A stretch of DNA of 64,000 nt from a virus (taxonomy: Duplodnaviria; Caudoviricetes). A program made the position numbers and the translations under genes. Shown here in pieces: positions 11,443 through 64,000 of this stretch. How positions within the stretch are numbered: position 1 is the stretch's first letter; each line of letters starts with the position of its first letter. The DNA lies in the IMG/VR virus record IMGVR_UViG_3300027533_000001, positions 3,146 through 67,145 of that record. The stretch is one strand, 5' to 3'. Under the pieces are notes generated by a model. That model made no database searches and was not told the DNA's origin. It was given only the letters and a program-made list of their open reading frames with translations.

Positions 11443-13524
11443 ATGGCCGAATCCAAGCCTCCCATCTACGTGCCGCTCACGGGCGTCATCACCCAGGTCA
11501 ACCCCAGTGCGCCTCCCCCCGCCGCCGTCCACTGCCATAACTTCCGGGTCATGCCCAGTGTCGACGGCTCCCTATGGCTCCGTCTCTTCGGTGGGCGCAA
11601 GCTCCGTGCCATCTTCGCCAGCGGCCTCTGGAAGCAGTTCCAGGAATACCTCGACCCGTGGGTAGCCGGTTACCGCAACCACATGGCCCTCAAGGTGACC
11701 AGTACTACGGCCCAGTGGTGGTCGCTGTTCCTGGGCTACTGGGATGGGGTCATGGTGCTCAATATCGAGCAACTCTACGGCGGGGCATTTGTTCTCACGC
11801 ATCCGGCCCCCGTATGCAACACCAACGAGGGGATCGTCATGTACAACGGGATGGGGGTGCGCAATACCACCGCTGGCTCCTTCCCCCCATTTAGTATCTA
11901 TCTCGCCGATGTCAATCAACTCATCTACCTGGGCCTGGACTGCTTCCTCACCAATGCCAACTTCCCGCCAGTGGCTTCCGCAACCCCCGGGTCCATGACC
12001 ATCCTCAACGAGATTACCTTCTACGTCGGCCTGTTCAACACCCGTACCTACCACTTCTCCAATGTCGTCTATGTGGGTACCGTCACTGCCGGTTCGAGCC
12101 GCGGTGTGTGGATCAGCCAATTGCAGAACATCCACATGCGCAGCCACGGCACGTATGAGACCGGCTTACAAAAGTACGTGTTCTACGCCACGGTGGACCT
12201 GACCAATGCCGAAGTGGGGTACCTCATGATGGACCCCGCCGACCCCACCATGCCCATTACCGCGCCCATTACCGCCACTGAAATCACGATCCCCAACTAC
12301 GTGCTCGACGTATTCAAGGAGGCCCCGGTCGACAACTTCCCCCCACGTCCCATGCGGTGGATAGCATTTGTAGAGGGACGCATCTATGGTGCATTACTCC
12401 CCGGCGGTGGGCAATCACCAACTCGCCCCGACTTTAGCTATGTCTCACCAACCCATTATCTAAGCGGTATCGTCTGGAGTGCTGCGGCGAGTGACGTAAG
12501 TGAAACCTTCTTTCTCGGTGCCCCCGAGCACGCCTTCCCCCTGGATAACTTCCGGTCCACCCCCAGCAGTGAGCAACCCGTCTGGGGCGCGAGGTCCCCC
12601 GAGGGGAAGTCGCTGCACGTCCTCACCGAGACCACCAACTACATCGTCTACGAGGACATCGACGAGAGGCACTCATTCACCGAGATCCCGGGCCGGTACG
12701 GGATATTCAACACCTACACCTATTGTGAGAGGACCCCGCACGGCTCTATTTGGGAGACGCAGAACGGTGAGATCGTCGCCCTGGACGAGGCTGGCCGCAT
12801 CGACATCCTCTCCCGCCCGTACCAGGATAAGTTACGCGGTAAAACCTCGCGCTTCGCCACGCACACGTTCGACCCGCCCAACATGATCGACCGCTACGAG
12901 TTGTTCTTCACAGACGGCACCGAGTGGGTGCATGACTTCATCACCGGCCAGGGCTATAGTGCTGATGGGGACTTCACTGGGGGCAAGACCCTGATTGACG
13001 CATACAACAAACGTAATCACATGCTGGCCAACCGGGACTTCTTCACCGCCGCCGGTCAGCCCGATGACTCACTAGGGCGGGAGTTGGTCAAGGACGACAT
13101 TGTCACTGGCGGTATCGCCGTCCCCACCCGCCGCACTGGTGAGTACGAGTCGCACTGGATAGACTTCGGCGACCCCGCCAGTATAGGCAATGTGGCCGAG
13201 ACCCACATCCACGGCGACGTGCGTAGTGCCAACCTGTCCATCCATGCGTGGCGCGATCATGAGGAGCCGCTGGATGCGACTGGGATACCCAACCTGTTGA
13301 CTAGCGCCATCTTCAGCGCAGCCAACTACATGGTCACGGTGGGCAAGGCATTGCTAGGCACAGTATGCAATCTCAAGTTGCGTATCCGCCTAGTCGCCGA
13401 CGCGAATGAAACATTCTACCCCACGGCGTACCAGTACGCACGCATGACCCTTGCCAAAACCATGGTCGGCGTCGTGGGCAAACTGGGCTTTGTATTGACT
13501 AAGGGAAGGATAAGGTTACAGTAA
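11443..13524 (+). CDS. Putative tail nozzle / tubular protein B (DNA stabilisation protein-like)
   Basis: 693 aa, beta-rich and propeller-like; position typical of podovirus tail genes. Confidence 0.55.
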   Translation: MAESKPPIYVPLTGVITQVNPSAPPPAAVHCHNFRVMPSVDGSLWLRLFGGRKLRAIFASGLWKQFQEYLDPWVAGYRNHMALKVTSTTAQWWSLFLGYWDGVMVLNIEQLYGGAFVLTHPAPVCNTNEGIVMYNGMGVRNTTAGSFPPFSIYLADVNQLIYLGLDCFLTNANFPPVASATPGSMTILNEITFYVGLFNTRTYHFSNVVYVGTVTAGSSRGVWISQLQNIHMRSHGTYETGLQKYVFYATVDLTNAEVGYLMMDPADPTMPITAPITATEITIPNYVLDVFKEAPVDNFPPRPMRWIAFVEGRIYGALLPGGGQSPTRPDFSYVSPTHYLSGIVWSAAASDVSETFFLGAPEHAFPLDNFRSTPSSEQPVWGARSPEGKSLHVLTETTNYIVYEDIDERHSFTEIPGRYGIFNTYTYCERTPHGSIWETQNGEIVALDEAGRIDILSRPYQDKLRGKTSRFATHTFDPPNMIDRYELFFTDGTEWVHDFITGQGYSADGDFTGGKTLIDAYNKRNHMLANRDFFTAAGQPDDSLGRELVKDDIVTGGIAVPTRRTGEYESHWIDFGDPASIGNVAETHIHGDVRSANLSIHAWRDHEEPLDATGIPNLLTSAIFSAANYMVTVGKALLGTVCNLKLRIRLVADANETFYPTAYQYARMTLAKTMVGVVGKLGFVLTKGRIRLQ

Positions 13525-13721
13525 TGGATCAGTTGATTATGCTTATTGTCTACATCATCCTGTTTGCCATAGTCGCATATGGCCTCAACTGGGTGTGTGT
13601 CTCCTATGCATTGCCCCAGCCCATCCGCTGGATAGTGGGCGGGATATTGCTAATCGTCCTGCTACTGTTCCTGTCGCGCCAGCTGGGGGTCGGCAGCGGG
13701 ACTGTGTTTCACCGACCGTAG
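13524..13721 (+). CDS. Small two-TM membrane protein (possible holin; Thivi_2564-like)
   Basis: Two hydrophobic helices separated by LPQPIRW; 65 aa. Confidence 0.55.
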   Translation: MDQLIMLIVYIILFAIVAYGLNWVCVSYALPQPIRWIVGGILLIVLLLFLSRQLGVGSGTVFHRP

Positions 13722-13739: not shown

Positions 13740-14378
13740 ATGACCATCAGCCAGCGGGGGCAGGTCGAACGCCAGCTAGCCGAGTTGGACCGCGCCACCC
13801 GCCTGTCCCGCCTCGCCCCCGCCCCGCCACGTGCAGTAAAAGGCGCAGGCGGGATATTGAGTTGGAACGCCCCCCATCCCAGTAGTCCCGGGGTCTACAC
13901 TCACTTCCGGGTCTATGCCAACGGCGACGGTGACGACAAGCTGGTACGCCAACTCCCCGCTGACCAGCTATTCCTCAGTGACGGCCTCACCGGCGACAGC
14001 ATCTTTGTATCAACTTTCAATGCCACCACTGGGGCCGAATCATCCCGCATCCCCATGGTGGGGACACTCGCCGCCGCTGTCGCACCCCCAGTGACTAGTG
14101 CCGACAGCGACATCTACCCGTATCTATTGACTAGTACTGGCATCACCCTCATCACCTACGCTGCGCCTGCCAAGGACGGCGACTTCCTAACTGTCGACAT
14201 CCGCATCCCACTAGGCGTGCCGCCCACCAATATATACTGGATCGAGTGGGGCGGGACGTTCGATCTCGACGTGCCCAACGGGTTGAACGACGTACCCGGG
14301 GCGCGGAATCTATTCTTTTTCACATCAATAGGACTAAAATGGACCATGCTAAGTTATCGTGGATATGTGCCGGAATAG
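13740..14378 (+). CDS. Hypothetical tail-region protein
   Basis: 212-aa ORF right after a palindrome; Fn3-like segment (ILSWNAP...THFRVY). Confidence 0.6.
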   Translation: MTISQRGQVERQLAELDRATRLSRLAPAPPRAVKGAGGILSWNAPHPSSPGVYTHFRVYANGDGDDKLVRQLPADQLFLSDGLTGDSIFVSTFNATTGAESSRIPMVGTLAAAVAPPVTSADSDIYPYLLTSTGITLITYAAPAKDGDFLTVDIRIPLGVPPTNIYWIEWGGTFDLDVPNGLNDVPGARNLFFFTSIGLKWTMLSYRGYVPE

Positions 14379-16681
14379 CGGCATTGCTGTTAGTCACTAA
14401 CCCGCTTACCGCCCAGGGGAATGTGCAGTACTCGTGGCAGGGGCCAGCGGAGATGCTGCCCAACACCCCCACGGCTGGGGGCGACACTGGTGAGTTTAGA
14501 TACCGCGAGAGCAAGACCTTCGGGGTCGAGTACGCCTCCATACGTGCGGCCACCAGCATGTCTACGTCGTACCGCATGCGCCTCCCCCCGTCTATCGGCG
14601 TCGTCGACTACTGCGTCAAGCGCGGGGCCACCGTGGTAGACGGCGATGGGGTCAACTCGATCCCGCTGCGCTTCGACGTCTGCGCCGCCCCCGGTGGCAC
14701 CGAGTGGATTAGTGCCACTCACGACTCAGCCAATCAACACCTGTCCACCGTGTATACCAACAATGTGGTCGACTACGCCGACTGGGTGGTACGGCGATCC
14801 CGGGGCACCGAGGCCACCCCAACCGATACTGTGGTAGGTGATTTCATCGCTGGCACCAACTACCAAGCGCGGGTGGGTGGGACATTCAAGCCCCAGCTGA
14901 TTATTACCAGTAAACGTATCACTGCCACCCCCACCGCTGTCGCCGACTGGCGTCTCACCATGTACGACGCCGCCGGTGCCGCTCACGACAAACTCCTCAT
15001 CAACGACAAGGCCACCCTCGACAGCGACTTCCTCCCCGCCCAGGATGTGACCCACTCACTGGGTAGCACCGCCCTCCGCTGGAAGAAGCTCTGGGTACAG
15101 GACATTGACTGTACCGGCGCATGCGGCATAGGCAGTAACTGGTTCCGCAACACCACTGCCGGTTATGTACGTCCACTGGTGGCCACCGACGACGTGCGTA
15201 CCCGCGCCAAGTACGTCTTCGAGGATGCCGCCAGCGTGACTACTGCCGACATCGAGGTGTCGAGCGGCGCGAATGAGTCCATGCAATTCCGCGACAAGGC
15301 CGGGAACGAGATGCTCAAACTCCAGGTCCTCTTCGCTACTGTCTCCAGCAAGGAGGCGACCCTGGATGCCACCTTCATACCAAAGACCGGGAACCTGTTC
15401 AACCTGGGGATCGACTCGACCCGCATGTGGAACGGCCTGTACGTTCAAAGCGTCTACCCCGTCAACCTGCGGCCATCAGCCACCGCCGCCTCCGGTGCCA
15501 TAAAGTCATTCGCCCACCTGAACCCAGCCGCCGCCGATTCCTACGACCTGGGCACCGCCACCGACCGCTGGCGCACCCTGTTTGTCAAGGACATTGATTG
15601 CATTGGCGTATGCCCCGGCGGCAGTGGTGGGTGGACCCGTGTTACAACCCCTACCACCTTACTTACTCCTACGGTGGTTGCCGACGACGTGCGCATCACC
15701 AACAAGTTACTGTTCCAGGACCGGGCCGGTGCCGGGGTGCTTAGTGCCCTGACGTTTGACATCTACGCCGACGTGGGCGGGGCCGGGGCGCGGTACATGG
15801 TATTCCGAGACAACGGCGGGGCCGAGATGCTGAGATTAGAACGGATGGAACTCACCAGCGTCACCGACAAGGCCATATTTGACCTGCACCTCATACCCAA
15901 GGCGGCTGGTGCCCGTGACCTCGGCCTGCCCTACACCGGGGTACCCGCCACTGACCGGTACTGGCGAACCGCATACATCAACGGGGTATTCCTGGGGGCC
16001 ATGGCGAGTCTCACGGGTAATGGGCAGATACTGTCGTATTCCCACTTTATGCCGGATGCCACCACCAGCGACCGCGACCTGGGCGCAACCACCGTGCGAT
16101 GGCGCACCGCCTATGTGCAGAACATCAATGCCAGCCTCACCTGCACTGTGGCGGGGTCGTCATGTAATAGTCTACTCACTGATGCGGGGGCGACCACCTA
16201 CCTAACCGCGACCACTGACAACTTTTGTATTGGGTGTGCGACCACTACCAACAAGCTGGAAGTTGCCGGTAACTTCAGGACCACTGACGGCATCGAGTTA
16301 GGCAATAACCTCAAGTGGACGAGTGACGCTGGCGGCGACATTGGCCTACCCACCGGTAACCGCCCCGGCTCCATCTACGCCGTCTCTGCCTACTACGTCT
16401 ACAGCGGCGCTGGCCCGTCAGCCTTCGTCCGTACCTCCCTCAGCGGCGGCGGTCTCATCCTGCGGAGTAGCGTGGAATCATTCCCCGGCAGCGGTATAGC
16501 CGCTACGACCTTCTCGATCAGCGCCAACACCGGCAGTGTCATCACCAGCAGCGGCTCTGCCGACTTTGGTGGCGGGTACAAGGTGGGGGCCAACGTGGGG
16601 ATAAGCGGGACCTTTAGTGTCTCATTCATCGGCTGCACCCTGACCCTGGTAGGGGGATTAGTTACCGGGAGATCGTGTTAG
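14339..16681 (+). CDS. Tail-fibre-like repeat protein with N-terminal signal-peptide-like segment
   Basis: Start reassigned to ATG 14339 (MDHAKLSWICAGIAALLLVTNPLTAQ). About five DLG-x4-8-RW-xx-L/A-Y/F-V fibre repeats and several Cys pairs. Confidence 0.75.
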   Translation: MDHAKLSWICAGIAALLLVTNPLTAQGNVQYSWQGPAEMLPNTPTAGGDTGEFRYRESKTFGVEYASIRAATSMSTSYRMRLPPSIGVVDYCVKRGATVVDGDGVNSIPLRFDVCAAPGGTEWISATHDSANQHLSTVYTNNVVDYADWVVRRSRGTEATPTDTVVGDFIAGTNYQARVGGTFKPQLIITSKRITATPTAVADWRLTMYDAAGAAHDKLLINDKATLDSDFLPAQDVTHSLGSTALRWKKLWVQDIDCTGACGIGSNWFRNTTAGYVRPLVATDDVRTRAKYVFEDAASVTTADIEVSSGANESMQFRDKAGNEMLKLQVLFATVSSKEATLDATFIPKTGNLFNLGIDSTRMWNGLYVQSVYPVNLRPSATAASGAIKSFAHLNPAAADSYDLGTATDRWRTLFVKDIDCIGVCPGGSGGWTRVTTPTTLLTPTVVADDVRITNKLLFQDRAGAGVLSALTFDIYADVGGAGARYMVFRDNGGAEMLRLERMELTSVTDKAIFDLHLIPKAAGARDLGLPYTGVPATDRYWRTAYINGVFLGAMASLTGNGQILSYSHFMPDATTSDRDLGATTVRWRTAYVQNINASLTCTVAGSSCNSLLTDAGATTYLTATTDNFCIGCATTTNKLEVAGNFRTTDGIELGNNLKWTSDAGGDIGLPTGNRPGSIYAVSAYYVYSGAGPSAFVRTSLSGGGLILRSSVESFPGSGIAATTFSISANTGSVITSSGSADFGGGYKVGANVGISGTFSVSFIGCTLTLVGGLVTGRSC

Positions 16682-16707: not shown

Positions 16708-17082
16708 ATGCACCGCATTACCGTCATTGCCATCCTCATCATGTTGGCCAATATCATATTTGCCCAGTCGGCCATCCCCACGCCACTGATTGCCAAGGCC
16801 GAGTCCAGCACTGTCACTGTCTCCGAGGCCGACCAAATCAAGCATCTACGTCTCATTGACTCTATCCGCGCACTGGAGAATAACATCCACCGTCTCAAGC
16901 TGGAGTACGAGGCCAAGAAGAGTGAACTGGAGGCGTCACAACGTACCAAGATGGACGACTACACCAAGTTCATCACCGCGAAACGTGCCGAGTACAAGGT
17001 GGGTGAGAGCTATGAGATAGATATAGACAAAGGTATCTGGGTAGACCGCAAACCCCCAGTACCCCCTGCCGACAAGAAGTAA
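16708..17082 (+). CDS. Exported or membrane-anchored coiled-coil protein
   Basis: RBS AAGGAG; MHRITVIAILIMLANIIFAQ is signal-like, followed by a coiled coil. Confidence 0.7.
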   Translation: MHRITVIAILIMLANIIFAQSAIPTPLIAKAESSTVTVSEADQIKHLRLIDSIRALENNIHRLKLEYEAKKSELEASQRTKMDDYTKFITAKRAEYKVGESYEIDIDKGIWVDRKPPVPPADKK

Positions 17083-17142: not shown

Positions 17143-18753
17143 ATGGCTGCGCAAGCCGTTCAACTCGCCGCCGCCGCGATCCCGTTCCTGTTCAAGCTAT
17201 TCGGCTCCGGCAAGAACAAGGAAACCAAGCAAGCCGAGGCCATGCCCGACGAGTTCATGTCGATCATGAAGCAACTGTTGGGCGATGCCAACATGGACAA
17301 GGCACGCGCCACTGCCCTATGGGATAACTACGTCCAGCGCATCCAGGACATGGCCGACCAGGGCTATGGCACCCCCGAAGACATCATGGGGCAGGGGAGC
17401 AGTGTTGTACGCGACGAAGGCCAAGGCCAAAAGCGCAAGGAGGAGACAGAGCAACTCGACGAGCGGTTCCGCAATGGGCCTAATGCCCAGACCACCTGGG
17501 GCGATGTCAGTGCCATTCTCGACCAGATGGGCATTGGCGCAGGTGCCACCTTCGATGCCGCCGAAGGTCTCATCCGCGACTCCAATGGCCGGGTCCTGGG
17601 CACCATCAATGATGTAGAGAAAAAGCTCCTGGAGATGACCGGGTCGACCTTCGACGCCGCCGGGGCAATACATCAAAAGCTCTACGGTGAACTCCGTGGC
17701 CGCATGGGGGCTGGCTTCAAGGAGCAGCGCGGCCAGCTGGGCAAGTTTGAAACCGACGCCACCCGCGCCTTAGAGGACGAGTACAAAGTCGACGCCAACG
17801 CCGCGATAGACAAGGCATTTTCACCCGATGCGACCAGTGCCCGGACAGGACGTGCATTTGCGCCAGCGGCGGCGGCAGCAGCATTTAGATCCCGCCGCGC
17901 CGGTCTCAGTGACACCGACCCCACGGCTGGGGCAATGCAATCCCGGGTCGAGGCCAGCAGGTCACGTGCGGTTGATGACGCACTCTCACTCGATGCCGAG
18001 AAGATGGCCAACGCACGTCTAGGCATTAGCGGCAGGGTACTGGACACGCGGCTAGGCATTGGCGGGAAAGTGCTCGACACCGGGCTGGGCATTAGCAGGG
18101 ACGAGATGGGCAAGGACATCAACCTGTCCACCGCCGACGAAGCAATACAACGGGGCCTCATTCTCGACCGGGGCGCTATTGACAGGGGCACCGTGGATAC
18201 TGCCGCGCAACGCCGCATCGCCGAGGATGTGCGTAACACCGGCCTCAACCTTGGCAATACCTACCGCTACCAGGATGAGTCCAACGCCGTCTACGCGGGA
18301 CGTATTGCGGCGGCAACAGATAAGTTGCAAAACAGTCGTGGTGACCTCGCCATTGCCACCGCCCTGGCTGACCGGCGCAACGAGGACCGCGAGTACCAGA
18401 ACCGGCTACGGGAACGCCAGTTCGGCGTGGGCATGCAGTTCGCCAATGCCGACTACGGGCGCAAGGACCGTGGCACCACCGCGATTGGCAATGCGTCCAA
18501 CGATGCGTTCAACCGCGCCTACCGCGATATAGTGGCCGCTGGGCAATTCGGGGAGCAGGCATCCCGTGGGTATGAACGCAATGCCGCCCGGGCCAACGAG
18601 AACAGCGGCACCTTTGCACGCCTAGCCAGCAGTGTGGGGGCAAGTGCGGCGAACTTCTTTGCCAGCAAGTATGGTAAGAAGAGTGGCGGGGGCGGCGGTA
18701 CAGACACCTATAATCCTACAGGCTGGAACCCCGGCACCGGCACCTGGGACTAG
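17143..18753 (+). CDS. Internal virion (DNA ejection/pilot) protein
   Basis: Amphipathic N-terminus (AAIPFLFKLFGSG), Ala/Gln-rich helical body, position after tail genes. Confidence 0.6.
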   Translation: MAAQAVQLAAAAIPFLFKLFGSGKNKETKQAEAMPDEFMSIMKQLLGDANMDKARATALWDNYVQRIQDMADQGYGTPEDIMGQGSSVVRDEGQGQKRKEETEQLDERFRNGPNAQTTWGDVSAILDQMGIGAGATFDAAEGLIRDSNGRVLGTINDVEKKLLEMTGSTFDAAGAIHQKLYGELRGRMGAGFKEQRGQLGKFETDATRALEDEYKVDANAAIDKAFSPDATSARTGRAFAPAAAAAAFRSRRAGLSDTDPTAGAMQSRVEASRSRAVDDALSLDAEKMANARLGISGRVLDTRLGIGGKVLDTGLGISRDEMGKDINLSTADEAIQRGLILDRGAIDRGTVDTAAQRRIAEDVRNTGLNLGNTYRYQDESNAVYAGRIAAATDKLQNSRGDLAIATALADRRNEDREYQNRLRERQFGVGMQFANADYGRKDRGTTAIGNASNDAFNRAYRDIVAAGQFGEQASRGYERNAARANENSGTFARLASSVGASAANFFASKYGKKSGGGGGTDTYNPTGWNPGTGTWD

Positions 18754-18791
18754 TGTTAGTTACTAACAGGGGTACAATAGGAGCCACCGCC

Positions 18792-23131: not shown

Positions 23132-23187
23132 AGCCTAGCGAGGAGGCGGGGTCGTTCCGCGACTGGATCAGCAAGTTCATCCCCAGC

Positions 23188-27399: not shown

Positions 27400-27437
27400 C
27401 GCCCGGATGGTAAACTGACCGGTTAGTGACTAACAGA

Positions 27438-29303
27438 ATGAGGCAATCTATGAAACTTGCTATGATCCTGGTCCTGGTAGCCCTGGTGTCGTTGGCCCAG
27501 ACCACGGGCAACAGCCGGTACTACACAGGTACTACACCTCCTGTGGGGTGCGTTGCGGGGCGTGACTTCTGGCTAAACACAACTGTTGGGGTGAATGATG
27601 CACTGCGGTTGGCGTCATGCACTTCCAATAACGTCTGGACCGTGCTGAGCGGGGCAGGCGGGGCAGGGACAGGGAACGTGGTGGGACCGGCACCTGGGAC
27701 GGCAGGTGTACTTACCACTGTTGACGCCGCTGGCACTGCCCTGTCGCGCACTGCCCTGACCGGCGTGATCAAGACCGCCAGTGGGGTACCTGCTGTGGTT
27801 ACGGGCACCGCTACTGACTTCGTGAGAGTAGATGGTACCAGTGCCCCAGCCGGGGTGGGTAGTGGGAATGTCACTGGTCCTGGGGTTGGCACGAGCGGGG
27901 CGGGGACGACTATTGACGCGGCAGGCACGACCCTCACCCGGTCTACGCTAACGGGGGTGATCAAGGCGACTGGTGGGGTGCCCAGCGTCGTCACGGGCAC
28001 TGCGACAGACTTTGTACGAGTAGACGGTACCAGCGCCCCTGGTGGTACTGGCGGGGTCGCTGGTCCCAGTGCCGGGGCCGGGGGTGAGGGGATGACCATT
28101 AATGCTGCCGGTACGGTACTTACCCGGTCCAACCTAACGGGGGTAATCAAGGCCACTGCTGGGGTACCCAGTATCGTCACGGGGGCGGGGACTAACTTTG
28201 TACGGGTGGACGGGACAAGTGCGGCGGCGGGGGGTACCGGGGATGTGACTGGTGCGTCTAACCTAACCACGGCCAACAAGGTGGTGATCGTCAACTCGGC
28301 GGGGGCAGTGACGCAGGGGACGGGATGTACGTATGCGACCAACGGCATCACCTGCACCGGGGGTTTCACATCTGGGGATGGCACGGCACAATCCGGGGTC
28401 ATCCTACCGGAACTCACCGCTAATGGCACCAATGACTTCCGCATGTACGGGGCGGCCAACCAGACTGCAGATGGCTGTGTCGTATTCACTGGTACCCTAG
28501 CCAGCGGGGAGTCGTGGCGCGGGTCGGCCACCACCACGGTGGTCAATGGCAAGACCTGCCGGGTCATGGAGACCTATACGCCAAGTGCCGGTGGCCCGGC
28601 TGGCCTTGACCTGTTCGATCCCGGGGTGTTTGTGATGTACGAGGAGTTCATTGAGGGGCCAGCAGTTAATATAGGCTCGGTATTTGGAGGTACCTCCGGG
28701 CTTAGGACCGGTACGTGGAATGGGGCAAGCGGATCGGTTACGGCTGGTGCTTCCTCACTTGGCCATCCCGGCATATTCCTGACCAACCCCGGCGTGACCA
28801 CTGGGCGCGGAACCATCCTGCACTACCAGTTCCTCAACGTCTATGGGCAGTTTGCCCTTTCCACGGCGGTCTTTGACAGTTACTGGATCTGGTCCAATGT
28901 GGCTACGATAGCCAACCAGGGCAACTATACCGGGTTCCTGGCGGCGGGTGAGAGTTCGGCTGCGCCGCCAACCACCAATAACGGCTGCTGGTGGCGGCGG
29001 CTGGCCACCGATACTAACTTTCAATGCGTATGTTCCGCAGCAGGTACCGCCACGGTGGTGGACTATGGGTTGCCGCCAGTGGCTGACAGGTTCTACCGGA
29101 CGGCGATCTATGCCACGACCCCGGGGACGATTAAGTTCCGGCTGTACGACAATGGGGTGGCGGTGGGGACTGAGGTTAGCATTTCCACCAATGTGCCGAC
29201 CGCTAACCTGGAGCCGTTCTACCTGCACCTGGGGGTGGGGGTGTCGGTGAACTCGGCGGTGGATAAGTTTGCACTTAAGCAGACCGGGATCACCAACCGT
29301 TAG
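27438..29303 (+). CDS. Exported fibre/adhesin-like protein with three internal repeats and a beta-sandwich C-terminal domain
   Basis: Signal-like MKLAMILVLVALVSLAQ (alternative start 27450); three 62-63 aa Gly/Thr-rich repeats; lectin-like C-terminus. Confidence 0.7.
   Translation: MRQSMKLAMILVLVALVSLAQTTGNSRYYTGTTPPVGCVAGRDFWLNTTVGVNDALRLASCTSNNVWTVLSGAGGAGTGNVVGPAPGTAGVLTTVDAAGTALSRTALTGVIKTASGVPAVVTGTATDFVRVDGTSAPAGVGSGNVTGPGVGTSGAGTTIDAAGTTLTRSTLTGVIKATGGVPSVVTGTATDFVRVDGTSAPGGTGGVAGPSAGAGGEGMTINAAGTVLTRSNLTGVIKATAGVPSIVTGAGTNFVRVDGTSAAAGGTGDVTGASNLTTANKVVIVNSAGAVTQGTGCTYATNGITCTGGFTSGDGTAQSGVILPELTANGTNDFRMYGAANQTADGCVVFTGTLASGESWRGSATTTVVNGKTCRVMETYTPSAGGPAGLDLFDPGVFVMYEEFIEGPAVNIGSVFGGTSGLRTGTWNGASGSVTAGASSLGHPGIFLTNPGVTTGRGTILHYQFLNVYGQFALSTAVFDSYWIWSNVATIANQGNYTGFLAAGESSAAPPTTNNGCWWRRLATDTNFQCVCSAAGTATVVDYGLPPVADRFYRTAIYATTPGTIKFRLYDNGVAVGTEVSISTNVPTANLEPFYLHLGVGVSVNSAVDKFALKQTGITNR
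27667..28240 (+). repeat. Three tandem coding repeats of about 187 bp
   Basis: The unit G(N/G)V.GP....G...T.DAAGT.L.R..LTGVIKAT.GVP.VVTG..TDFVRVDGTSAP occurs three times. Confidence 0.9.
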
Positions 29304-29315
29304 TGACTAACTGCC

Positions 29316-32300
29316 ATGCGACAACTCTATCTCCTTGCCATATTGACATTTCCACTGACCAGTGCCGTCGTCCCCATACGGACGCACGACAACAAGAACT
29401 GCCACATCACCGGGGCCACCAATGCGACACCCATCGTACTCACCTGCGGGGTGGCCCATCACATGGCAACCAACGACATGATCCAGGTGGCCAACGTTGC
29501 GGGGACCACCAATGCCAATGGGTTACGTTATGTCGACGTCCTGTCCCCCACGACTATTGCCCTGTACAGTGCGCCTGGACCTACAACTCCAGTGGCGGGT
29601 AACGGGGTGTGGAGCAACGGCACCATCACCCACCCAGGCCCCCCAGTCGCCACCTATTCCGGGGGGATACAACTGGCCGGGTTAGTGACTAACTACACCA
29701 CCCAACCGCACCCGCGTCTCGCCTGGAACCCTGCGGGGGAGTTGATCGAGTTCGCCGCCAGTATCGAGAACGGCCTGCTCACCAGCATCCAGGTCGCCAG
29801 TGGTATTGCCACCGCCACCTATACCCGGGCACATGGACTGGCAGTGGGTAATAAGATATGCATCTTCGGGGCTGTTGCCACCAACCTCAACTGTTCCAGT
29901 ACCGCCGGTCCAACCGTGTACTTTACGATCACAGCGGTCCCCTCGCCGACCACCATCCAGTGGACTAACGGATTGGTTCTGGACGCCACATTCAACAGTA
30001 CCAATCTCACCGTCTCCAGCTGGGCGCAGGGCGGGAATGTCGCATGGGTCGCCGTGAATAACTTTAGATCCTACCTCACTGCCGGGACCCCACCCGCGTA
30101 CACGCTTGGCCGTCTCAACTACCTCAAGGATAAGAGTGCGAACATGGCCACGATATGCTATGTCAACCGGAGTGACACCGAGGCGTGTACGATTGCGGAA
30201 CATGCGATTAATAATCCTGGGACGTTCTTCAACAACGGTGCCTGCGTCGAGACCTACCCCAGCGTTACTAATAATAATTGCGATGACGACCAGGGGGATT
30301 ATGCCAGTTTCAGTGCCGTCCACATGGCCTACATCTACGACCTGATGAAGCCTACCGGTTACCTGGACGCCGGGGAACGCGCCGCCTTTGCCAATGCCAT
30401 GCTCAACGACCTGGGCGATGGGTGCACCAAGATGGTGAGGACCAACCGGAGCGGGACCATCAGTGTCGTGGCCAACGAGGGGGCGAATGTGACACTGACC
30501 GGCATTGGGACGTCGTTTCTATCGCAGGTCGTCGTGGGATCACTAATTGTCGGCCAGGGCTACCTCGGCGCTGGCACGACGATCTATGTCAACGGCGTCA
30601 CCAACGACACTACCCTCACGGTCAACAACAACTCGGCCCGTACCAATGCCACCTTCGCCACCATCGACCCGCGCACCTCCACCTCCTGCGGCGTCTGGTG
30701 GTACCTGAAACATCACGCTGGCTCCCCGCTGTCGCAACCATCCCTCTACCCGCCGCAGGGGGGCACCACCACGAGTAGCTCGTCAGAGCCGATTAATAAT
30801 ATGACGAGGTCCAAGCTGGGGGCGGCAGTGGCACTGGGGATTGTACTCGCCGATGATGACCCCCGGGCAGTGGCACTGTTGAGTGATACGAGCCTGTTCT
30901 GGTTCGACTACACCCATGCCGGTGAGCGGGGACATTATACCGGGATGACTAATGGTGGGCCTAATTACTACTTTGCCCGGGTCGCCCACTATGCAATTGA
31001 CATAACCCTCTACTGGAGGAATGCGTTCATCAATGGCCCAGATTTAACCGATGCTGGGTACATGAATAGTTTCAACGACGCCTTACGCTTCCTCTGGCAC
31101 CCCAACGCCGCCGTGGGTACACGGGAGTGGTGCACGTATGCGTTTGGGGCAGACGCGGACGGTACTAACTGCTTTGATGGGGCCGGTGGGCGGATGGCCG
31201 GGTTTGCCGGGAGCAGCAGGGTATTTCCCAAGTCGATGGAGACATCCAAGTTCATGCACTGGTTCCTCAATGTGGCCGGGTTCAACACCGATACCATTGA
31301 CAGCACTAACTCGTATGAGTCGACCAACATGTTCAAGCGGTTGCCAGCTAATGTGACGGCCACCAGCTACACCAGTGACCCGACCCAGCGGGTGTTTAGG
31401 ACGACGGCGGCAGATACGGCATGGTGCCTAGTCCCCGGGACGTATGGGTGCCCAACGACGGGTGGTGGGATGGCGTATGTGTTCTCACGTACTGGGTGGA
31501 CCAGCCCCAGCGACACGGCATTTACCTACTCGTCGGCGAGTTTCAATGGCGACCACGATAGTCCCCGGGCGACCGATTACTGCATTGTCAAGGGGAATGG
31601 GCTGGTGTGCGGCGATAGCTTTGAACCCAACCAGTCGCTGGGGTCGATGGGGGCGGCGGGTGGGACGAATGAGGCTGAGACCAACATGGGGCAGATGGGC
31701 GGGTTACTGCTCAACCGGGGGCTGGTGTCGATGATACGCGGCGACTTTGTCTATGAGTTGTTCCATGCGCCGATACTGCGATGGGCCGGGGGCGCGGATA
31801 ATAACGGGAGAAGTGATAGCGCATTTGCCTATGCCCTGTCCAATGTACTCATATGGAGGACCGGGATTACCAGACAGCACCGGGGGGTGTTGCACTACAA
31901 GCGTGCTGGTAAACAGGAGTACGTGATTCTATGGGATGACGTAGTGCGGAGTGCGGCAGGGACAGTGAAGTTGTATACTCATTACCCCCAAAACGGCGAG
32001 GGTGGCGTCGAGGGGATCACTACATGCCCCAGTGGCGACACTGCCTGTGCCAATATCAATACGTCCAAGCAGGTTACCAGTGCGACGAGTGGGACCATCT
32101 ACAGTGTCAATACGACGTGGGTCGCGCCCACCGGGTCTGACCTGTACCTGATGGTGGACAACCCCGACGGGACGTATCCCACCGGGGCGGGGCATAGTTA
32201 CAGGGTCACTGGCTGTGGCGGGACAAGTAGTTGTGCGAGTGTTACGGCGCTGGAGATGTTCACCGTGCACAAGATCTCCACCGGGGCAGTGACCACGATC

Positions 32301-32639
32301 AGTGCGCTGCCGTTGAACCCGAGTGCGAATTGGTCTGGGGCACAGTATGTCGATCTCACGTACCTCCATGCGCGGGGCGGGGGGACGTTTGGCAGTGTGC
32401 CAGCGGTGACCACGACATTGACTACTGATTACATTGCGGCGGGACTGGACCCGGGGGCGTATGATGTGAAGCTCGGCGGGAGTACCGTGTGTGGCGTCGT
32501 TGCCGTGGGGGCCGGGGATAATACCATCTACTGTCCCAATGTGGGGGCGGGGGCGATCACGGTGACACCGGCAGCAACTGGGACTGGGGTGTCGATTAGT
32601 GGCAGTGCGTCTATCACCGGGCAAGCGCGAGTGCAGTAG
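29316..32639 (+). CDS. Large exported protein with heparinase II/III-like (polysaccharide lyase-like) C-terminal region
   Basis: Signal-like MRQLYLLAILTFPLTSA; ITGATNATPIVLT...HHMATND beta-domain; FSRTGWTSPSDT...GDHDSPR...IVKG resembles the heparinase II/III R.GW...H.H motif region; many Cys. Confidence 0.6.
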   Translation: MRQLYLLAILTFPLTSAVVPIRTHDNKNCHITGATNATPIVLTCGVAHHMATNDMIQVANVAGTTNANGLRYVDVLSPTTIALYSAPGPTTPVAGNGVWSNGTITHPGPPVATYSGGIQLAGLVTNYTTQPHPRLAWNPAGELIEFAASIENGLLTSIQVASGIATATYTRAHGLAVGNKICIFGAVATNLNCSSTAGPTVYFTITAVPSPTTIQWTNGLVLDATFNSTNLTVSSWAQGGNVAWVAVNNFRSYLTAGTPPAYTLGRLNYLKDKSANMATICYVNRSDTEACTIAEHAINNPGTFFNNGACVETYPSVTNNNCDDDQGDYASFSAVHMAYIYDLMKPTGYLDAGERAAFANAMLNDLGDGCTKMVRTNRSGTISVVANEGANVTLTGIGTSFLSQVVVGSLIVGQGYLGAGTTIYVNGVTNDTTLTVNNNSARTNATFATIDPRTSTSCGVWWYLKHHAGSPLSQPSLYPPQGGTTTSSSSEPINNMTRSKLGAAVALGIVLADDDPRAVALLSDTSLFWFDYTHAGERGHYTGMTNGGPNYYFARVAHYAIDITLYWRNAFINGPDLTDAGYMNSFNDALRFLWHPNAAVGTREWCTYAFGADADGTNCFDGAGGRMAGFAGSSRVFPKSMETSKFMHWFLNVAGFNTDTIDSTNSYESTNMFKRLPANVTATSYTSDPTQRVFRTTAADTAWCLVPGTYGCPTTGGGMAYVFSRTGWTSPSDTAFTYSSASFNGDHDSPRATDYCIVKGNGLVCGDSFEPNQSLGSMGAAGGTNEAETNMGQMGGLLLNRGLVSMIRGDFVYELFHAPILRWAGGADNNGRSDSAFAYALSNVLIWRTGITRQHRGVLHYKRAGKQEYVILWDDVVRSAAGTVKLYTHYPQNGEGGVEGITTCPSGDTACANINTSKQVTSATSGTIYSVNTTWVAPTGSDLYLMVDNPDGTYPTGAGHSYRVTGCGGTSSCASVTALEMFTVHKISTGAVTTISALPLNPSANWSGAQYVDLTYLHARGGGTFGSVPAVTTTLTTDYIAAGLDPGAYDVKLGGSTVCGVVAVGAGDNTIYCPNVGAGAITVTPAATGTGVSISGSASITGQARVQ

Positions 32640-32643
32640 TAGT

Positions 32644-32672
32644 TAGTCACTAACAAGACGTGGTGGTATACT
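32644..32672 (+). promoter_or_regulatory. Putative promoter of the PEP-CTERM gene; -35 overlapped by the palindrome
   Basis: TAGTCA-17-TATACT with an extended -10 TG. Confidence 0.45.
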
Positions 32673-32743
32673 ATCTGCATCGTGGCTGGGACGCCCAGTG
32701 AACGTTCGGTTTCCCGGCCATGTGATCAATAGAAGGGAAACGT

Positions 32744-33445
32744 ATGAAACGAATAGTACTTGTGATCACGGTGCTGGCTCTATCCAGTGCCCAGTTGGGG
32801 GCGACCCTGCTAAGTGTGCTGGTCGCTGGCGGATCGCTGTCCAACTCCTATATCACTGTCGATGACTTCTCATTTACCCGCACCTGCGGCGGGATTGGGG
32901 TGTGTGCGCCGCTGGATGCGAGTGGGATAGATGTAACGCTTGCCAACAACCAGATTCGATTTGCCGGTGGGTTTACCGCGCTGTCCAACAGTGGGTTTGC
33001 CTCGTCCGACTTCCTCATCGCCTATGACATTTCGGTGAACCCGCTGTTCCCAGCGATTGGCGGGGTGGGGCTGCTGTTTAATGGCGCTGTCGTTGGAGAC
33101 CAGAGTTTTGCACAGGTTGTCGAGACCATCATTGGGACGGTGCCTTTTCTCCACGTCGCAGGGCAGGCGCAGGTCGATGCCCCCGGTGGGCCGTTGCAGG
33201 ATGTGGCCATTCTCGATGCCCCTTACCGTGACCTGCGGATAGTCAAGGATATCTTCCTGGTGGGCAGTGATAGTGAGGGGCTGGGGTATGCGACGATCTC
33301 GCTGATTGACCAGTTCTACGCAGGGCCGGGGGTTGATCCATTCTGTGTCGGGGCTGAGTGCGACGTGCCGGAACCTGCCACGTATGCGATGCTGGGCATG
33401 GGCCTGCTGGGGATTGCCCTTGCAAAGCGCCGCCGCTTGGTGTAG
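32744..33445 (+). CDS. PEP-CTERM sorting domain protein
   Basis: N-terminal signal peptide, and C-terminal VPEPATYAMLGMGLLGIALAKRRRLV (PEP, TM helix, basic tail). Confidence 0.92.
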   Translation: MKRIVLVITVLALSSAQLGATLLSVLVAGGSLSNSYITVDDFSFTRTCGGIGVCAPLDASGIDVTLANNQIRFAGGFTALSNSGFASSDFLIAYDISVNPLFPAIGGVGLLFNGAVVGDQSFAQVVETIIGTVPFLHVAGQAQVDAPGGPLQDVAILDAPYRDLRIVKDIFLVGSDSEGLGYATISLIDQFYAGPGVDPFCVGAECDVPEPATYAMLGMGLLGIALAKRRRLV

Positions 33446-63294: not shown

Positions 63295-64000
63295 ATGCTA
63301 GACACCACCATCGAGGAACGGTCCATTGAGTCCACCAGCGTCGAATACCCGTCCCGCCCCCAGGAGGTGATCGTATTTACCCCAGTCGGCACCGACGTAA
63401 TCACCGGTATCCCCAGCCCAGCCCTGTCCAGTTACGACCAACTCACCGACATCTTACCCTTTATCCAGATCGGCTTCTACGCATCTGGCCCAAATACGGG
63501 TCCAGTCACCATCAACCTAAACGACCTCGGCCCCATCCCATTAACTAAGGTTGACGGTGTGATAGATGTCCCCCTCGACGCTGGCGACATCGCCCTCCAT
63601 CAATACGTCCAAGCCGCCTACTACCCGTGGACCCCATCGTTTCAACTCGTTACCGGCACCGCGAGTATGCAAGGGCCAGCTGGACCCCCAGGCCCGGAGG
63701 GACCCCCCGGCCCCCCAGGCGTGGGGCTGGCAATCAAAGGCGCAGTCGATACCGTGGGCGACCTCCCCCCGACCGGCGAGGAGGGTGATGCATGGGTTGT
63801 CGAGAATACTGGCCACCTCTGGGTATGGGACCCCACGACGTCAACCTGGGTCGACAGCGGCCTCATCCAAGGACCCCCCGGTGTCCCCGGCCCAGTCGGC
63901 CCCGCCGGTCCCGCAGGCGTCGACGGCACCAATGGCGTCCAGGGCCTGCCAGGATTACCCGGCCTTGAAGGCGAAAAGGGCGACCAAGGCGACCCCGGTC
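63295..64000 (+). CDS. Collagen-like tail fibre protein, 3'-truncated by the window edge (not in the ORF track)
   Basis: ATG right after the palindrome, frame open to the end. Gly-X-Y runs (GPAGPPGPEGPPG; GPPGVPGPVGPAG...GEKGDQGDPG) flank IKGAVDTVGDLPPTGEEGDAWVV...GHLWVWD. Confidence 0.85.
   Translation, partial: MLDTTIEERSIESTSVEYPSRPQEVIVFTPVGTDVITGIPSPALSSYDQLTDILPFIQIGFYASGPNTGPVTINLNDLGPIPLTKVDGVIDVPLDAGDIALHQYVQAAYYPWTPSFQLVTGTASMQGPAGPPGPEGPPGPPGVGLAIKGAVDTVGDLPPTGEEGDAWVVENTGHLWVWDPTTSTWVDSGLIQGPPGVPGPVGPAGPAGVDGTNGVQGLPGLPGLEGEKGDQGDPG

What the first reader, a model, noticed from the sequence alone, without database searches (positions are those of the whole stretch)
14339..16681. 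Tail-fibre-repeat protein that starts with a Sec-type signal peptide and is rich in Cys pairs
Seen: the N-terminus MDHAKLSWICAGIAALLLVTNPLTA|Q looks like a cleavable signal peptide. The body has classic fibre repeats (SLGSTALRWKKLWVQ, YDLGTATDRWRTLFVK, RDLGATTVRWRTAYVQ) and close Cys pairs (CTGAC, CIGVC, CTVAGSSC, CIGC). Established: tailed-phage virions assemble in the reducing cytoplasm and their fibres normally lack signal peptides. Inference: receptor-binding proteins may be exported, disulfide-folded in the periplasm and attached to virions during or after lysis, or displayed on the infected cell. Either would be an unusual assembly route.
Basis: partly seen in the sequence, partly recalled or inferred. 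Interest (0 to 1): 0.8.

Follow-up and report, generated by a model that had tools for sequence, protein, structure and literature searches.

The report
Phage fibre protein with export signal
An uncultured 67-kb bacteriophage encodes a three-stranded, tail-fibre-like protein that starts with a bacterial secretion signal and carries paired cysteines, so it probably folds outside the cytoplasm where phage particles are built; whether it then joins the virus particle or acts on the cell envelope is still open.

Summary
ORF 14339-16681 (780 aa) lies in the late operon of a complete 67,145-bp uncultured phage. It begins with a Sec/SPase-I-type signal (K5, 14-residue hydrophobic core, L-T-A|Q26).

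The same N-terminus, with in-frame indels, occurs in three relatives of about 40% identity. SP-like N-termini occur in 34 of 130 full-length homologues. Those homologues are richer in Cys, and the mature part holds an even Cys number in 29 against 3; SP-less homologues give 36 against 35. Cys pairs appear and vanish together.

The body is a fibre. A ~170-aa module is duplicated in tandem, the LGxxxxRWxxxYV motifs are real, and a homotrimer model of residues 226-420 scored 0.89 (best control 0.00). No Pfam or PHROG family matches.

Caveats: no trained signal-peptide predictor was available. The start overlaps the upstream gene by 40 nt. The "LVTN" of the signal is the phage's 13-bp junction palindrome read in frame.

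Export and disulfide folding are well supported by inference (about 0.7). Attachment to virions after export is untested (about 0.3). The phage also has a canonical signal-less collagen/S74 fibre and a PEP-CTERM protein, so an envelope-acting, Bdellovibrio-MAT-like role is at least as likely.

This scan has noted signal peptides on phage fibres before, on other DNA.

The parts
14339..16681 (+). Whole gene: 780-aa signal-bearing fibre-like protein (P0001), stop codon included
   Evidence: homologues
14339..14413 (+). Signal peptide, residues 1-25: n-region MDHAK, h-region of 14 aa, c-region TNPLTA. Predicted SPase I cut is A25|Q26.
   Evidence: conserved in P0003/L002, P0008 and P0010
14339..14378 (+). 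40-nt overlap with the 3' end of upstream gene 13740-14378, in another frame
   Evidence: The same overlap (43 nt) occurs in L002.
14389..14401 (.). Copy of the genome-wide junction palindrome GTTAGTCACTAAC, read in its only open frame as L-V-T-N inside the signal peptide
   Evidence: Same placement in L002 5994-6006. Absent from P0008, which keeps the hydrophobic stretch.
14414..15034 (+). Mature N-terminal domain, residues 26-232, with the Cys92-Cys115 pair. Homologous to the N-terminal 'NYVGF..AP...LP..DG' domain of signal-less phage fibres.
   Evidence: C92 and C115 invariant in 15 sequences
15035..15523 (+). Fibre module 1, residues 233-395: LGSTALRWKKLWV, DIDCTGAC (C258, C262), and a beta domain
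   Evidence: trimer model
15524..16048 (+). Fibre module 2, residues 396-570: LGTATDRWRTLFV, DIDCIGVC (C421, C425), and a beta domain. Tandem duplicate of module 1.
   Evidence: 34% identity, E 2e-23
16049..16678 (+). Third LG...RW motif and Gly/Ser-rich C-terminal region, with Cys pairs 602/609, 630/633 and 766/780. C780 is the last residue and is nearly invariant in the family.
16708..17082 (+). Downstream 124-aa protein with its own signal-like N-terminus (…IIFA|QS) and a coiled-coil body. Syntenic and conserved in L002 8817-9206.
13740..14378 (+). Upstream 212-aa protein with no signal and no Cys. Its conserved C-terminus (WTMLSYRGY) overlaps the fibre start.
13524..13721 (+). 65-aa protein with two hydrophobic segments, conserved in L002 (5089-5292)
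11443..13524 (+). 693-aa signal-less protein, probably a P22-gp10-like tail hub (language-model lead only)
   Evidence: Phage_stabilise cluster, score 0.94, 201 shared features. No Pfam, PHROG or PDB sequence hit.
27426..33445 (+). Three further signal-bearing, Cys-rich late proteins: 625 aa, 1107 aa, and a 233-aa PEP-CTERM protein
   Evidence: (PF07589, 30.1 bits against a cut-off of 20.7). The first two are absent from relative G001; the third is present there.
63295..63999 (+). Start of the phage's canonical signal-less fibre (collagen repeats plus Peptidase_S74). It runs on across the record's end into L008 1-3909.
   Evidence: homologue in G001

Best explanation
The gene encodes a tail-fibre-family protein that leaves the cytoplasm.

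Inferred steps:
- Translation starts at ATG 14339.
- The 25-residue N-terminus directs the chain through the host Sec translocon.
- Signal peptidase I cuts after L-T-A, exposing Gln26.
- In the oxidising periplasm the chain forms an intertwined homotrimeric fibre. Six short-range disulfides staple it: 92-115, 258-262, 421-425, 602-609, 630-633 and 766-780.

Shown here: the anatomy, its conservation, the family-wide coupling of signal with cysteines, and a confident trimer model.

Inferred, not shown: actual export, cleavage and disulfide formation.

The destination is unresolved. My odds, given export, are:
- about 0.5 that it acts as a free or envelope-bound adhesin of the infected cell, like Bdellovibrio MAT fibres or a receptor mask;
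- about 0.4 that it docks on finished particles when lysis mixes the compartments;
- about 0.1 for something else.
For: 1. Signal anatomy. There is a K in the n-region, a 14-aa uncharged h-region, a helix-breaking TNP, and A at -1. Among 30 signal-like N-termini of the family, -1 is A, G or S by the way the sites were picked, and L at -3 occurs in 11. The -3 residue is always A, L, V, T, C or I, the median length is 18, and 29 of 30 have K or R in the first 8 residues.

2. The long N-terminus is kept in relatives of about 40% identity (P0003/L002, P0008, P0010). The hydrophobic sequences differ, the indels are in frame (15 nt in L002), and the boundary A|QG(N/T)(V/I)(Q/R)(Y/W)xWQGP is conserved. 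P0008 lacks the palindrome but keeps the hydrophobic stretch.

3. No alternative start is conserved. M39 is Y in P0008 and L in P0010. V29 is ATC (Ile) in L002.

4. Of 130 full-length homologues, 34 have signal-like N-termini. They sit at the same distance before a homologous N-domain.

5. Cysteine signature.
- The mature part has an even Cys number in 29 signal-bearing homologues and an odd number in 3 (binomial p 2.6e-6). Signal-less homologues give 36 even, 35 odd and 25 with none.
- Median Cys content is 1.09% against 0.32% (Mann-Whitney p 4e-6).
- The CxxxC pairs co-occur: 25 both, 139 neither, 11 single.
- C92 and C115 are invariant in signal-bearing N-domains and both absent from the signal-less homologues P0147 and P0153.

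6. Within this phage, the five signal-bearing late proteins hold 48 Cys in 2,869 aa. The fourteen signal-less late proteins hold 23 in 7,289 aa, and eight of them, including a 1,403-aa protein, have none.

7. A homotrimer of residues 226-420 scored 0.89 (best of 3 controls 0.00). The mark was reached by 20 of 30 proteins solved as pairs of one chain and by 1 of 23 solved as single chains. The runs agree in at least 94% of contacts and partner pLDDT is at least 87. The counts hold only roughly here, because my own alignment and three copies were used. The monomer model of the same stretch was poor, as expected for an obligate trimer.

8. The operon also encodes a bona fide PEP-CTERM protein, so this phage does use the host's export route.
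Against: - No trained predictor (SignalP, DeepTMHMM) and no experiment was available. My signal calls rest on a hand-written rule, which also chose Q at +1.
- The n-region is weakly basic (D2, K5). In P0008 and P0010 the h-region is only moderately hydrophobic (maximum KD of about 2.0 over 11 residues).
- Conservation of the ATG and of 'MDxAxxS' may be a by-product of the upstream gene. Its conserved (K/R)-W-T-M-L-S-Y-R-G-Y codons cover the same bases.
- Part of the signal is the junction palindrome, which is conserved for its own reasons.
- Two gene calls start at M39.
- The homologues are phylogenetically related, so the p-values overstate independence.
- Disulfide pairings are guessed from spacing and co-occurrence, not from a structure.
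Confidence: 0.7

Rival explanations
1. Sub-case of export. The exported, disulfide-stapled trimer is a true virion fibre. It waits in the periplasm and docks by its conserved N-domain onto fibre-less particles when holin, endolysin and spanin lysis mixes periplasm and cytoplasm.
For: - The gene sits inside the virion module, between the probable tail hub and the Cys-free internal-protein-like genes. It keeps that place in the 40%-identical complete phage G001. In contrast, the distal signal-bearing 625-aa and 1107-aa genes are not conserved.
- The N-terminal ~230 aa are the best conserved part among relatives while distal modules are swapped. That is the usual pattern of virion-docked receptor-binding proteins.
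- The N-domain is homologous to the extreme N-terminus of signal-less phage fibres.
- No homologue was found in 185,579 bacterial species genomes by two pattern scans. The homologues sit on contigs of 24-76 kb.
- Own knowledge: P22 tailspikes and T4 and T7 fibres can be added to particles in vitro.
Against: - No tailed phage is known to assemble this way, and none turned up in three literature searches.
- The hub-like protein and all head and internal proteins lack signals, so the parts are made in different compartments.
- The phage already has a canonical signal-less collagen/S74 fibre, which G001 also keeps.
- No virion proteome exists, and there is no cultured relative.
Confidence: 0.28
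2. Sub-case of export. The trimer is not a virion part. It is a phage-made adhesin that stays in or on the envelope of the infected cell, or is released free. It could be a MAT-like surface fibre, a mask for the receptor that spares progeny from debris and blocks superinfection, or a matrix-binding factor.
For: - There is a published precedent for phage-fibre-like trimers with a signal peptide, a conserved beta-rich N-domain right after it, disulfides in the tips and proven surface display: the Bdellovibrio MAT family (PMC10769870).
- The same operon ends with a PEP-CTERM protein, which is an envelope-sorted cargo.
- A canonical signal-less fibre is available for the virion.
- Signal-bearing 'Q-rule' proteins of unknown function in Porphyromonas phages have been read as envelope modifiers (PMC10367356).
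- This reading avoids the problem that virion parts would be made in separate compartments.
Against: - A conserved core position inside the virion module is unusual for an accessory gene.
- A long, duplicated shaft has no obvious use for a receptor mask.
- The N-domain is related to fibre N-termini rather than to any known envelope anchor.
- Homology to the MAT N-domain could not be tested. Fold matches to Bd2133 and Bd2439 are below noise (Z 4.9 and 4.6).
Confidence: 0.36
3. Not exported. The real start is downstream of the junction palindrome (GTG 14423 or ATG 14453), as at almost every other junction of this genome. The product would be an ordinary cytoplasmic fibre, and the open hydrophobic reading upstream would be an accident of the overlap and the palindrome.
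For: - In nearly all other junctions the order is stop, then palindrome, then start. Here the palindrome lies 10 nt after the upstream stop.
- Two gene calls start at M39.
- The ATG and first residues are constrained by the upstream gene's frame.
- A 25-38-codon open stretch is not improbable at 60% GC.
Against: - The peptide QG.(V/I)QYSWQGP is conserved upstream of M39, with synonymous and conservative changes.
- M39 and V29 are not conserved as starts.
- The indels are in frame and hydrophobicity is maintained in four lineages, including one without the palindrome.
- GGAG abuts ATG 14453 with no spacer.
- Distant homologues have unambiguous MR/MK-type signals at the same place.
- The even-Cys signature would be left unexplained.
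Confidence: 0.12
4. Translated but not cleaved. The N-terminal hydrophobic segment tethers the fibre to the inner membrane as a type II anchor, or as a SAR-like releasable anchor freed when the membrane is depolarised at lysis.
For: - The h-regions of P0008 and P0010 are rich in Gly, Ala, Ser and Thr and only weakly hydrophobic, as in SAR domains (own knowledge).
- Flanking genes encode a 65-aa two-segment membrane protein and a signal- or anchor-bearing coiled-coil protein.
Against: - The h-region is 8-16 residues, short for a stable span.
- A helix breaker followed by (A/L)-x-(A/G/S)|Q is available in every one of the 30 signal-like N-termini examined, although the sites were chosen by that rule. 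This fits cleavage.
- Gln at +1 is nearly invariant, as for processed proteins.
Confidence: 0.1

Closest known systems
Bdellovibrio bacteriovorus MAT (mosaic adhesive trimer) fibres, Caulton et al. 2024 (PMC10769870)
   Same: Both are phage-fibre-like homotrimers with an N-terminal signal peptide, a conserved beta-rich domain directly after it, a modular shaft, swappable tips and disulfides. The MAT fibres are exported and work outside the cytoplasm.
   Different: MAT fibres are chromosomal genes of a predatory bacterium and are displayed on its own surface. This gene is a core late gene of a tailed phage. Sequence homology was not shown, and fold matches are below noise. There is no S74 domain here.
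Canonical tailed-phage fibres (T4 gp34/gp37, lambda Stf with Pfam Phage_fiber_2, BPP-1 Mtd, S74-capped fibres)
   Same: It has a trimeric, repetitive beta shaft with LGxxxxRWxxxYV-type junction motifs, sits in the structural operon, and has a conserved N-part with variable distal parts. Its nearest language-model and structure neighbours are viral clusters carrying Mtd_N, Peptidase_S74 and Phage_fiber_2 (leads only). T4 gp34 is the top but weak fold hit (Z 6.4, rmsd 12.1 over 132 residues).
   Different: Those fibres have no signal peptide, are Cys-poor, and fold in the cytoplasm, some with chaperones. No Pfam or PHROG fibre model matches this protein.
Signal-peptide 'Q-rule' proteins of Porphyromonas gingivalis phages, Matrishin et al. 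2023 (PMC10367356), and the Bacteroidetes Q-rule (PMC5837995)
   Same: These are phage-encoded proteins with SPase I signals that expose Gln at +1. In this family a Gln directly after an A, G or S was available at the end of the signal in 33 of 34 N-termini. My rule looked for that Gln first, so this is availability, not an unbiased count.
   Different: Those genes have unknown function, are not fibres, and were read as envelope modifiers. The host phylum here is unknown, and the PEP-CTERM neighbour does not point clearly to Bacteroidota.
Filamentous-phage adsorption protein g3p (own knowledge, not tested here)
   Same: It is a phage receptor-binding protein made with a Sec signal peptide, disulfide-bonded in the periplasm, and added to the particle outside the cytoplasm.
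   Different: Ff phages assemble by extrusion through the envelope. This phage has terminase, portal and an HK97-type capsid, so its particles are built in the cytoplasm.

Membership tests
Sec/SPase I (type I) signal peptide | Positively charged n-region | tested here: met
   K5, but D2 makes the net charge about 0. Of 30 family N-termini, 29 have K or R in the first 8 residues.
Sec/SPase I (type I) signal peptide | Uncharged hydrophobic h-region of about 7-15 residues, shorter than a membrane span | tested here: met
   LSWICAGIAALLLV is 14 aa, with a maximum KD of 2.92 over 11 residues.
Sec/SPase I (type I) signal peptide | Small or aliphatic uncharged residues at -3 and -1 after a helix breaker | tested here: met
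   T-N-P-L-T-A|Q. L at -3 is unusual in general but occurs in 11 of 30 family members.
Sec/SPase I (type I) signal peptide | Positive call by a trained predictor (SignalP or DeepTMHMM) | not testable with these tools
Sec/SPase I (type I) signal peptide | Experimentally processed N-terminus | not testable with these tools
Lipoprotein (SPase II) signal | Lipobox L-[AS]-[GA]-C at the end of the h-region | tested here: not met
   C10 lies in S-W-I-C near the start of the h-region, so it is not a lipobox. Homologues P0053 (LAGC) and P0056 (FSGC) do have lipobox-like strings.
Tailed-phage tail fibre | Match to a curated fibre family (for example Pfam Phage_fiber_2, or PHROG tail fibre) | tested here: not met
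   No family at E <= 0.1 in Pfam or <= 0.01 in PHROGs. Signal-bearing homologues give only sub-threshold End_tail_spike, BppL_N and Phage_depo_C hits.
Tailed-phage tail fibre | Homotrimeric, intertwined beta shaft | tested here: met
   A model only: trimer of 226-420 scored 0.89 against 0.00 for the best control, with about 930 contacts and pLDDT of at least 87.
Tailed-phage tail fibre | Encoded in the virion module of a tailed phage | tested here: met
   It lies between the MCP and hub-like genes and the internal-protein-like genes, and is syntenic in G001.
Tailed-phage tail fibre | Present in purified virions and needed for adsorption | not testable with these tools
   No cultured relative.
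Bdellovibrio MAT superfamily | Signal peptide followed directly by a conserved beta-rich N-domain of about 130 aa | tested here: inconclusive
   The architecture is analogous. Homology to the MAT N-domain was not testable because that part has no solved structure. My N-domain model was poor (pLDDT 53).
Bdellovibrio MAT superfamily | Surface display on the producing cell | not testable with these tools
   Needs an experiment.

The most novel reading that the evidence does not exclude
In this phage lineage the distal fibre is built in a different compartment from the rest of the particle. It is Sec-exported, cut after Ala25, oxidised into a disulfide-stapled trimer in the periplasm, and docked through its conserved N-domain onto cytoplasm-built, fibre-less particles only when lysis merges the compartments. 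That would be a two-compartment assembly route for a tailed phage.
Probability: 0.28. Interest if true: 0.9.

Novelty: new variant of a known kind. Interest (0 to 1): 0.6.

Why it matters
Textbook tailed-phage assembly takes place wholly in the reducing cytoplasm.

A conserved, core, fibre-family gene built for export and disulfide folding means one of two things. Either some tailed phages finish their particles outside the cytoplasm, or phages deploy fibre-like adhesins on or in the envelope of the cell they are killing. I found neither described in print.

It also matters in practice. Gene callers truncate such genes at internal Met codons. Recombinant fibres of this class would need periplasmic expression. 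Host-range prediction from "tail fibre" annotations would misread proteins that may never sit on the virion.

The even-cysteine signature gives a cheap computational marker for finding the whole class.

Tried and rejected
The contigs of P0008, P0010, P0011, P0012 and the other Logan or ENA homologues could therefore not be read.
It was rerun from files.

Context searches for distant signal-bearing homologues:
- Two alignments were too diverse to search with.
- Two genome-contig scans found no relative.
- Of three further viral-contig scans, two found nothing. The third found only L004, a myovirus whose 848-aa fibre-like P0141 also has a signal.
- Of two metagenome scans, the first found nothing and the second gave only unrelated giant proteins sharing one junction motif (L007).

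Searches against known phages and structures:
- tblastn against 50,697 cultured phages gave no match for the fibre or the portal, and only about 24% identity for the MCP.
- PDB sequence and profile searches gave nothing real. The flavodoxin hits at E of about 0.5 are noise.
- There was no PDB hit for the 693-aa or 212-aa neighbours.

Structure modelling:
- The AlphaFold2 monomer of the whole protein was poor (pLDDT 51), and so was the N-domain alone (pLDDT 53). No disulfide geometry could be read from either.
- The fold search of the whole model stayed below the noise level of Z 8.

Other checks:
- Self-BLAST did not show the internal repeat until the segments were compared directly.
- An N-domain search with P0022 residues 1-170 gave only 12 hits. 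It did reveal the signal-less homologues P0147 and P0153.
- A dual-start model, with an exported long form and a cytoplasmic M39 form, was considered and set aside. M39 and V29 are not conserved, and GGAG abuts ATG 14453.
- The tail-needle position analogy (P22 gp26) was set aside as incompatible with export.
- No endolysin was found among ten further ORFs.


Full report
**What the window is.** The window is bases 3146-67145 of a complete 67,145-bp IMG/VR virus record with direct terminal repeats. GC content is about 59% and there are no tRNAs. PHROG hits mark a large terminase and an HK97-type major head protein, so this is a tailed phage. The late genes run rightward from about 2.1 to 33.4 kb. 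No cultured phage is close. The fibre and portal have no tblastn match, and the capsid protein reaches only 24% identity.

**The observation.** ORF 14339-16681 encodes 780 aa. AGGA lies 5 nt before the ATG. The three quoted motifs and a fourth are present. They belong to a tandem duplication of a ~170-aa module: 233-395 against 396-570, 34% identity, E 2e-23. The 13 Cys sit at 10, 92, 115, 258, 262, 421, 425, 602, 609, 630, 633, 766 and 780. That is one in the signal and six close pairs in the mature part.

**Is the start real?** Three things complicate it.
- The first 40 nt overlap the upstream gene 13740-14378.
- The codons for L-V-T-N (14389-14401) are one of 46 copies (one mismatch allowed) of the palindrome GTTAGTNACTAAC. 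About 0.05 copies are expected by chance. The palindrome sits at nearly every gene junction, normally between stop and start. Here it lies 10 nt after the upstream stop but 50 nt after the proposed ATG.
- Some gene calls (P0002, P0007) begin at M39.

A relative of about 40% identity, in a second complete phage (L002 in G001, 65,851 bp, syntenic), has the same layout: a 43-nt overlap, then the palindrome, then the boundary LAA|QG. The DNA alignment shows that the ATG and the first residues are constrained by the upstream protein's conserved C-terminus. Their conservation is therefore not independent evidence.

The rest is independent evidence:
- A 15-nt in-frame insertion of hydrophobic codons separates the upstream stop from the palindrome in L002.
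- P0010 has an in-frame insertion after LVTN that ends in A-H-A|Q.
- P0008 has no palindrome yet keeps a hydrophobic stretch and L-S-A|Q.
- All four share QG(N/T)(V/I)(Q/R)(Y/W)xWQGP immediately after the boundary, with synonymous and conservative codon changes.
- The alternative starts are not conserved. M39 is Y or L in P0008 and P0010. V29 is ATC in L002.

I put the long form at about 0.85.

**The family.** An exhaustive phmmer search of 1.84 billion representatives gave 136 hits. Among 130 full-length sequences, 34 have signal-like N-termini of the MR/MK, hydrophobic core, (A/G/S)|Q type, with a median length of 18. The -3 residue is always A, L, V, T, C or I. K or R occurs early in 29 of 30. 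The signals stand at a fixed distance before a conserved N-domain. That domain is itself homologous to the extreme N-terminus of signal-less phage fibres, the 'NYVGF.AP … LP..DG..GQ.L..DG.G.LSW' type seen in P0147 and P0153. In signal-bearing members the Q/L and W positions of that domain are replaced by a Cys pair (C92 and C115 here). The pair is invariant in a 15-sequence alignment and is either both present or both absent.

**Cysteine signature.**
- Signal-bearing homologues have a median of 1.09% Cys against 0.32% for the others (p 4e-6).
- Their mature parts hold an even number of Cys in 29 cases and an odd number in 3 (p 2.6e-6). Signal-less homologues split 36 to 35, with 25 having none.
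- The CxxxC pairs after V.DID co-occur: 25 both, 139 neither, 11 single.
- Inside this phage the same split holds. The five signal-bearing late proteins have 48 Cys in 2,869 aa. The fourteen signal-less ones have 23 in 7,289 aa, and eight of them, including proteins of 853 and 1,403 aa, have none.

Even Cys numbers in exported proteins are an established mark of disulfide bonding (own knowledge, Dutton et al. 2008). The tests are not corrected for shared ancestry.

**Fibre nature.** Pfam, PHROGs and PDB sequence searches find nothing. Signal-bearing homologues give only sub-threshold tailspike and fibre hits. Language-model neighbours are viral clusters with Mtd_N, Peptidase_S74 and Phage_fiber_2 (leads only). 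The AlphaFold2 monomer was poor (pLDDT 51). Three copies of residues 226-420, however, gave an intertwined trimer. The score was 0.89 against 0.00 for the best of 3 controls. The mark was reached by 20 of 30 proteins solved as pairs of one chain and by 1 of 23 solved as single chains, counts that hold only roughly here. The runs agree in at least 94% of contacts, and pLDDT is at least 87. The fold search stayed below noise. T4 gp34 was top (Z 6.4, rmsd 12.1 over 132 residues), with the Bdellovibrio fibres Bd2133 and Bd2439 at Z 4.9 and 4.6.

**Context that bears on the destination.**
- The 693-aa protein upstream is probably a P22-gp10-like hub (language-model score 0.94, 201 shared features) and has no signal.
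- The fibre and the 124-aa signal-bearing coiled-coil protein after it are conserved and syntenic in G001.
- The signal-bearing 625-aa and 1107-aa proteins are not conserved there.
- The 233-aa signal-bearing protein is a true PEP-CTERM protein (30.1 bits) and is conserved in G001.
- Both phages also carry a long signal-less fibre with collagen repeats and a Peptidase_S74 chaperone, spanning the genome ends.

The virion therefore has at least one ordinary fibre, and the phage demonstrably sends non-virion cargo to the envelope.

**Interpretation.** Export, cleavage at A25|Q26 and disulfide-stapled trimer formation are the best-supported reading (about 0.7). None of these steps is shown directly.

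For the fate I can only give odds. A virion fibre added at lysis is at about 0.28 overall. It is favoured by the core, syntenic position, by the conserved N-part with variable C-part, and by homology of the N-domain to fibre N-termini. An envelope-acting or free adhesin is at about 0.36. It is favoured by the compartment problem, by the canonical fibre, by the PEP-CTERM neighbour, and by the MAT precedent (PMC10769870). The remaining readings are a downstream start (0.12) and an uncleaved or SAR-like tether (0.10).

**What is known.** Three literature searches found no description of Sec signals on tail fibres of tailed phages. The nearest in print are the MAT fibres and the Q-rule signal proteins of Porphyromonas phages (PMC10367356, PMC5837995). 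Earlier notes of this scan report the same theme many times on other DNA, with later checks pricing the virion-export reading at 6-30%. I treated these as leads only.

Noticed in passing
window 1382-63293 (46 sites); L002 (8 sites in 14.7 kb): The palindrome GTTAGTNACTAAC marks almost every gene junction on both arms. It often supplies the upstream gene's TAG or TAA stop. It is shared with the 40%-identical phage G001. A few copies lie deep inside long ORFs: 25005, 29681 and 37333.
   Followed up: partly
window 16708-17082; L002 8817-9206: A 124-aa protein with a signal- or anchor-like N-terminus (…A|Q) and a coiled-coil body follows the fibre directly and is conserved in the relative. It has no family hit. 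It could be a periplasmic partner of the fibre or an i-spanin-like protein.
   Followed up: partly
window 13524-13721; L002 5089-5292: A conserved 65-67-aa protein with two hydrophobic segments sits between the hub-like gene and the fibre block. It is holin-sized, but no endolysin was found nearby.
   Followed up: no
window 17143-27399: Four consecutive large late proteins (536, 605, 853 and 1,403 aa; 3,397 aa in all) contain no cysteine at all. They are Pro/Gly/Ala-rich, and the last carries an LPD38 domain. They look like internal or ejection proteins. G001 has a 1,686-aa Cys-free counterpart.
   Followed up: partly
window 63295-63999 continuing in L008 1-3909: A very long signal-less fibre (more than 1,300 aa) with collagen triple-helix repeats and a C-terminal Peptidase_S74 chaperone runs across the ends of the record. 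A 1,599-aa open frame in G001 matches it.
   Followed up: partly
window 27426-32639 compared with G001 (L009): The signal-bearing, Cys-rich 625-aa and 1107-aa proteins at the end of the late operon have no counterpart in the otherwise syntenic relative. The PEP-CTERM protein that follows them is kept.
   Followed up: partly
L004 9323-11869 (IMGVR_UViG_3300002093_000025, 59 kb): An unrelated phage with a tail sheath (a myovirus) encodes an 848-aa fibre-like protein, P0141. It has a Bacteroidota-style signal (…SASS|QNN) and a sub-threshold Phage_depo_C end, and it lies among structural genes.
   Followed up: partly
homologues P0053, P0056, P0014: Three signal-bearing homologues have lipobox-like strings (LAGC, FSGC, WAGC) a few residues before a G/S|Q site. 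Some family members may therefore be lipoproteins. Their Cys counts stay even once that Cys is set aside.
   Followed up: no
window 22693-23188: A palindrome copy lies inside the 853-aa ORF, and the stop-to-stop frame of the next gene opens right after it (22705), 483 nt before its first ATG (23188). The 1,403-aa protein may start earlier at a non-ATG codon.
   Followed up: no
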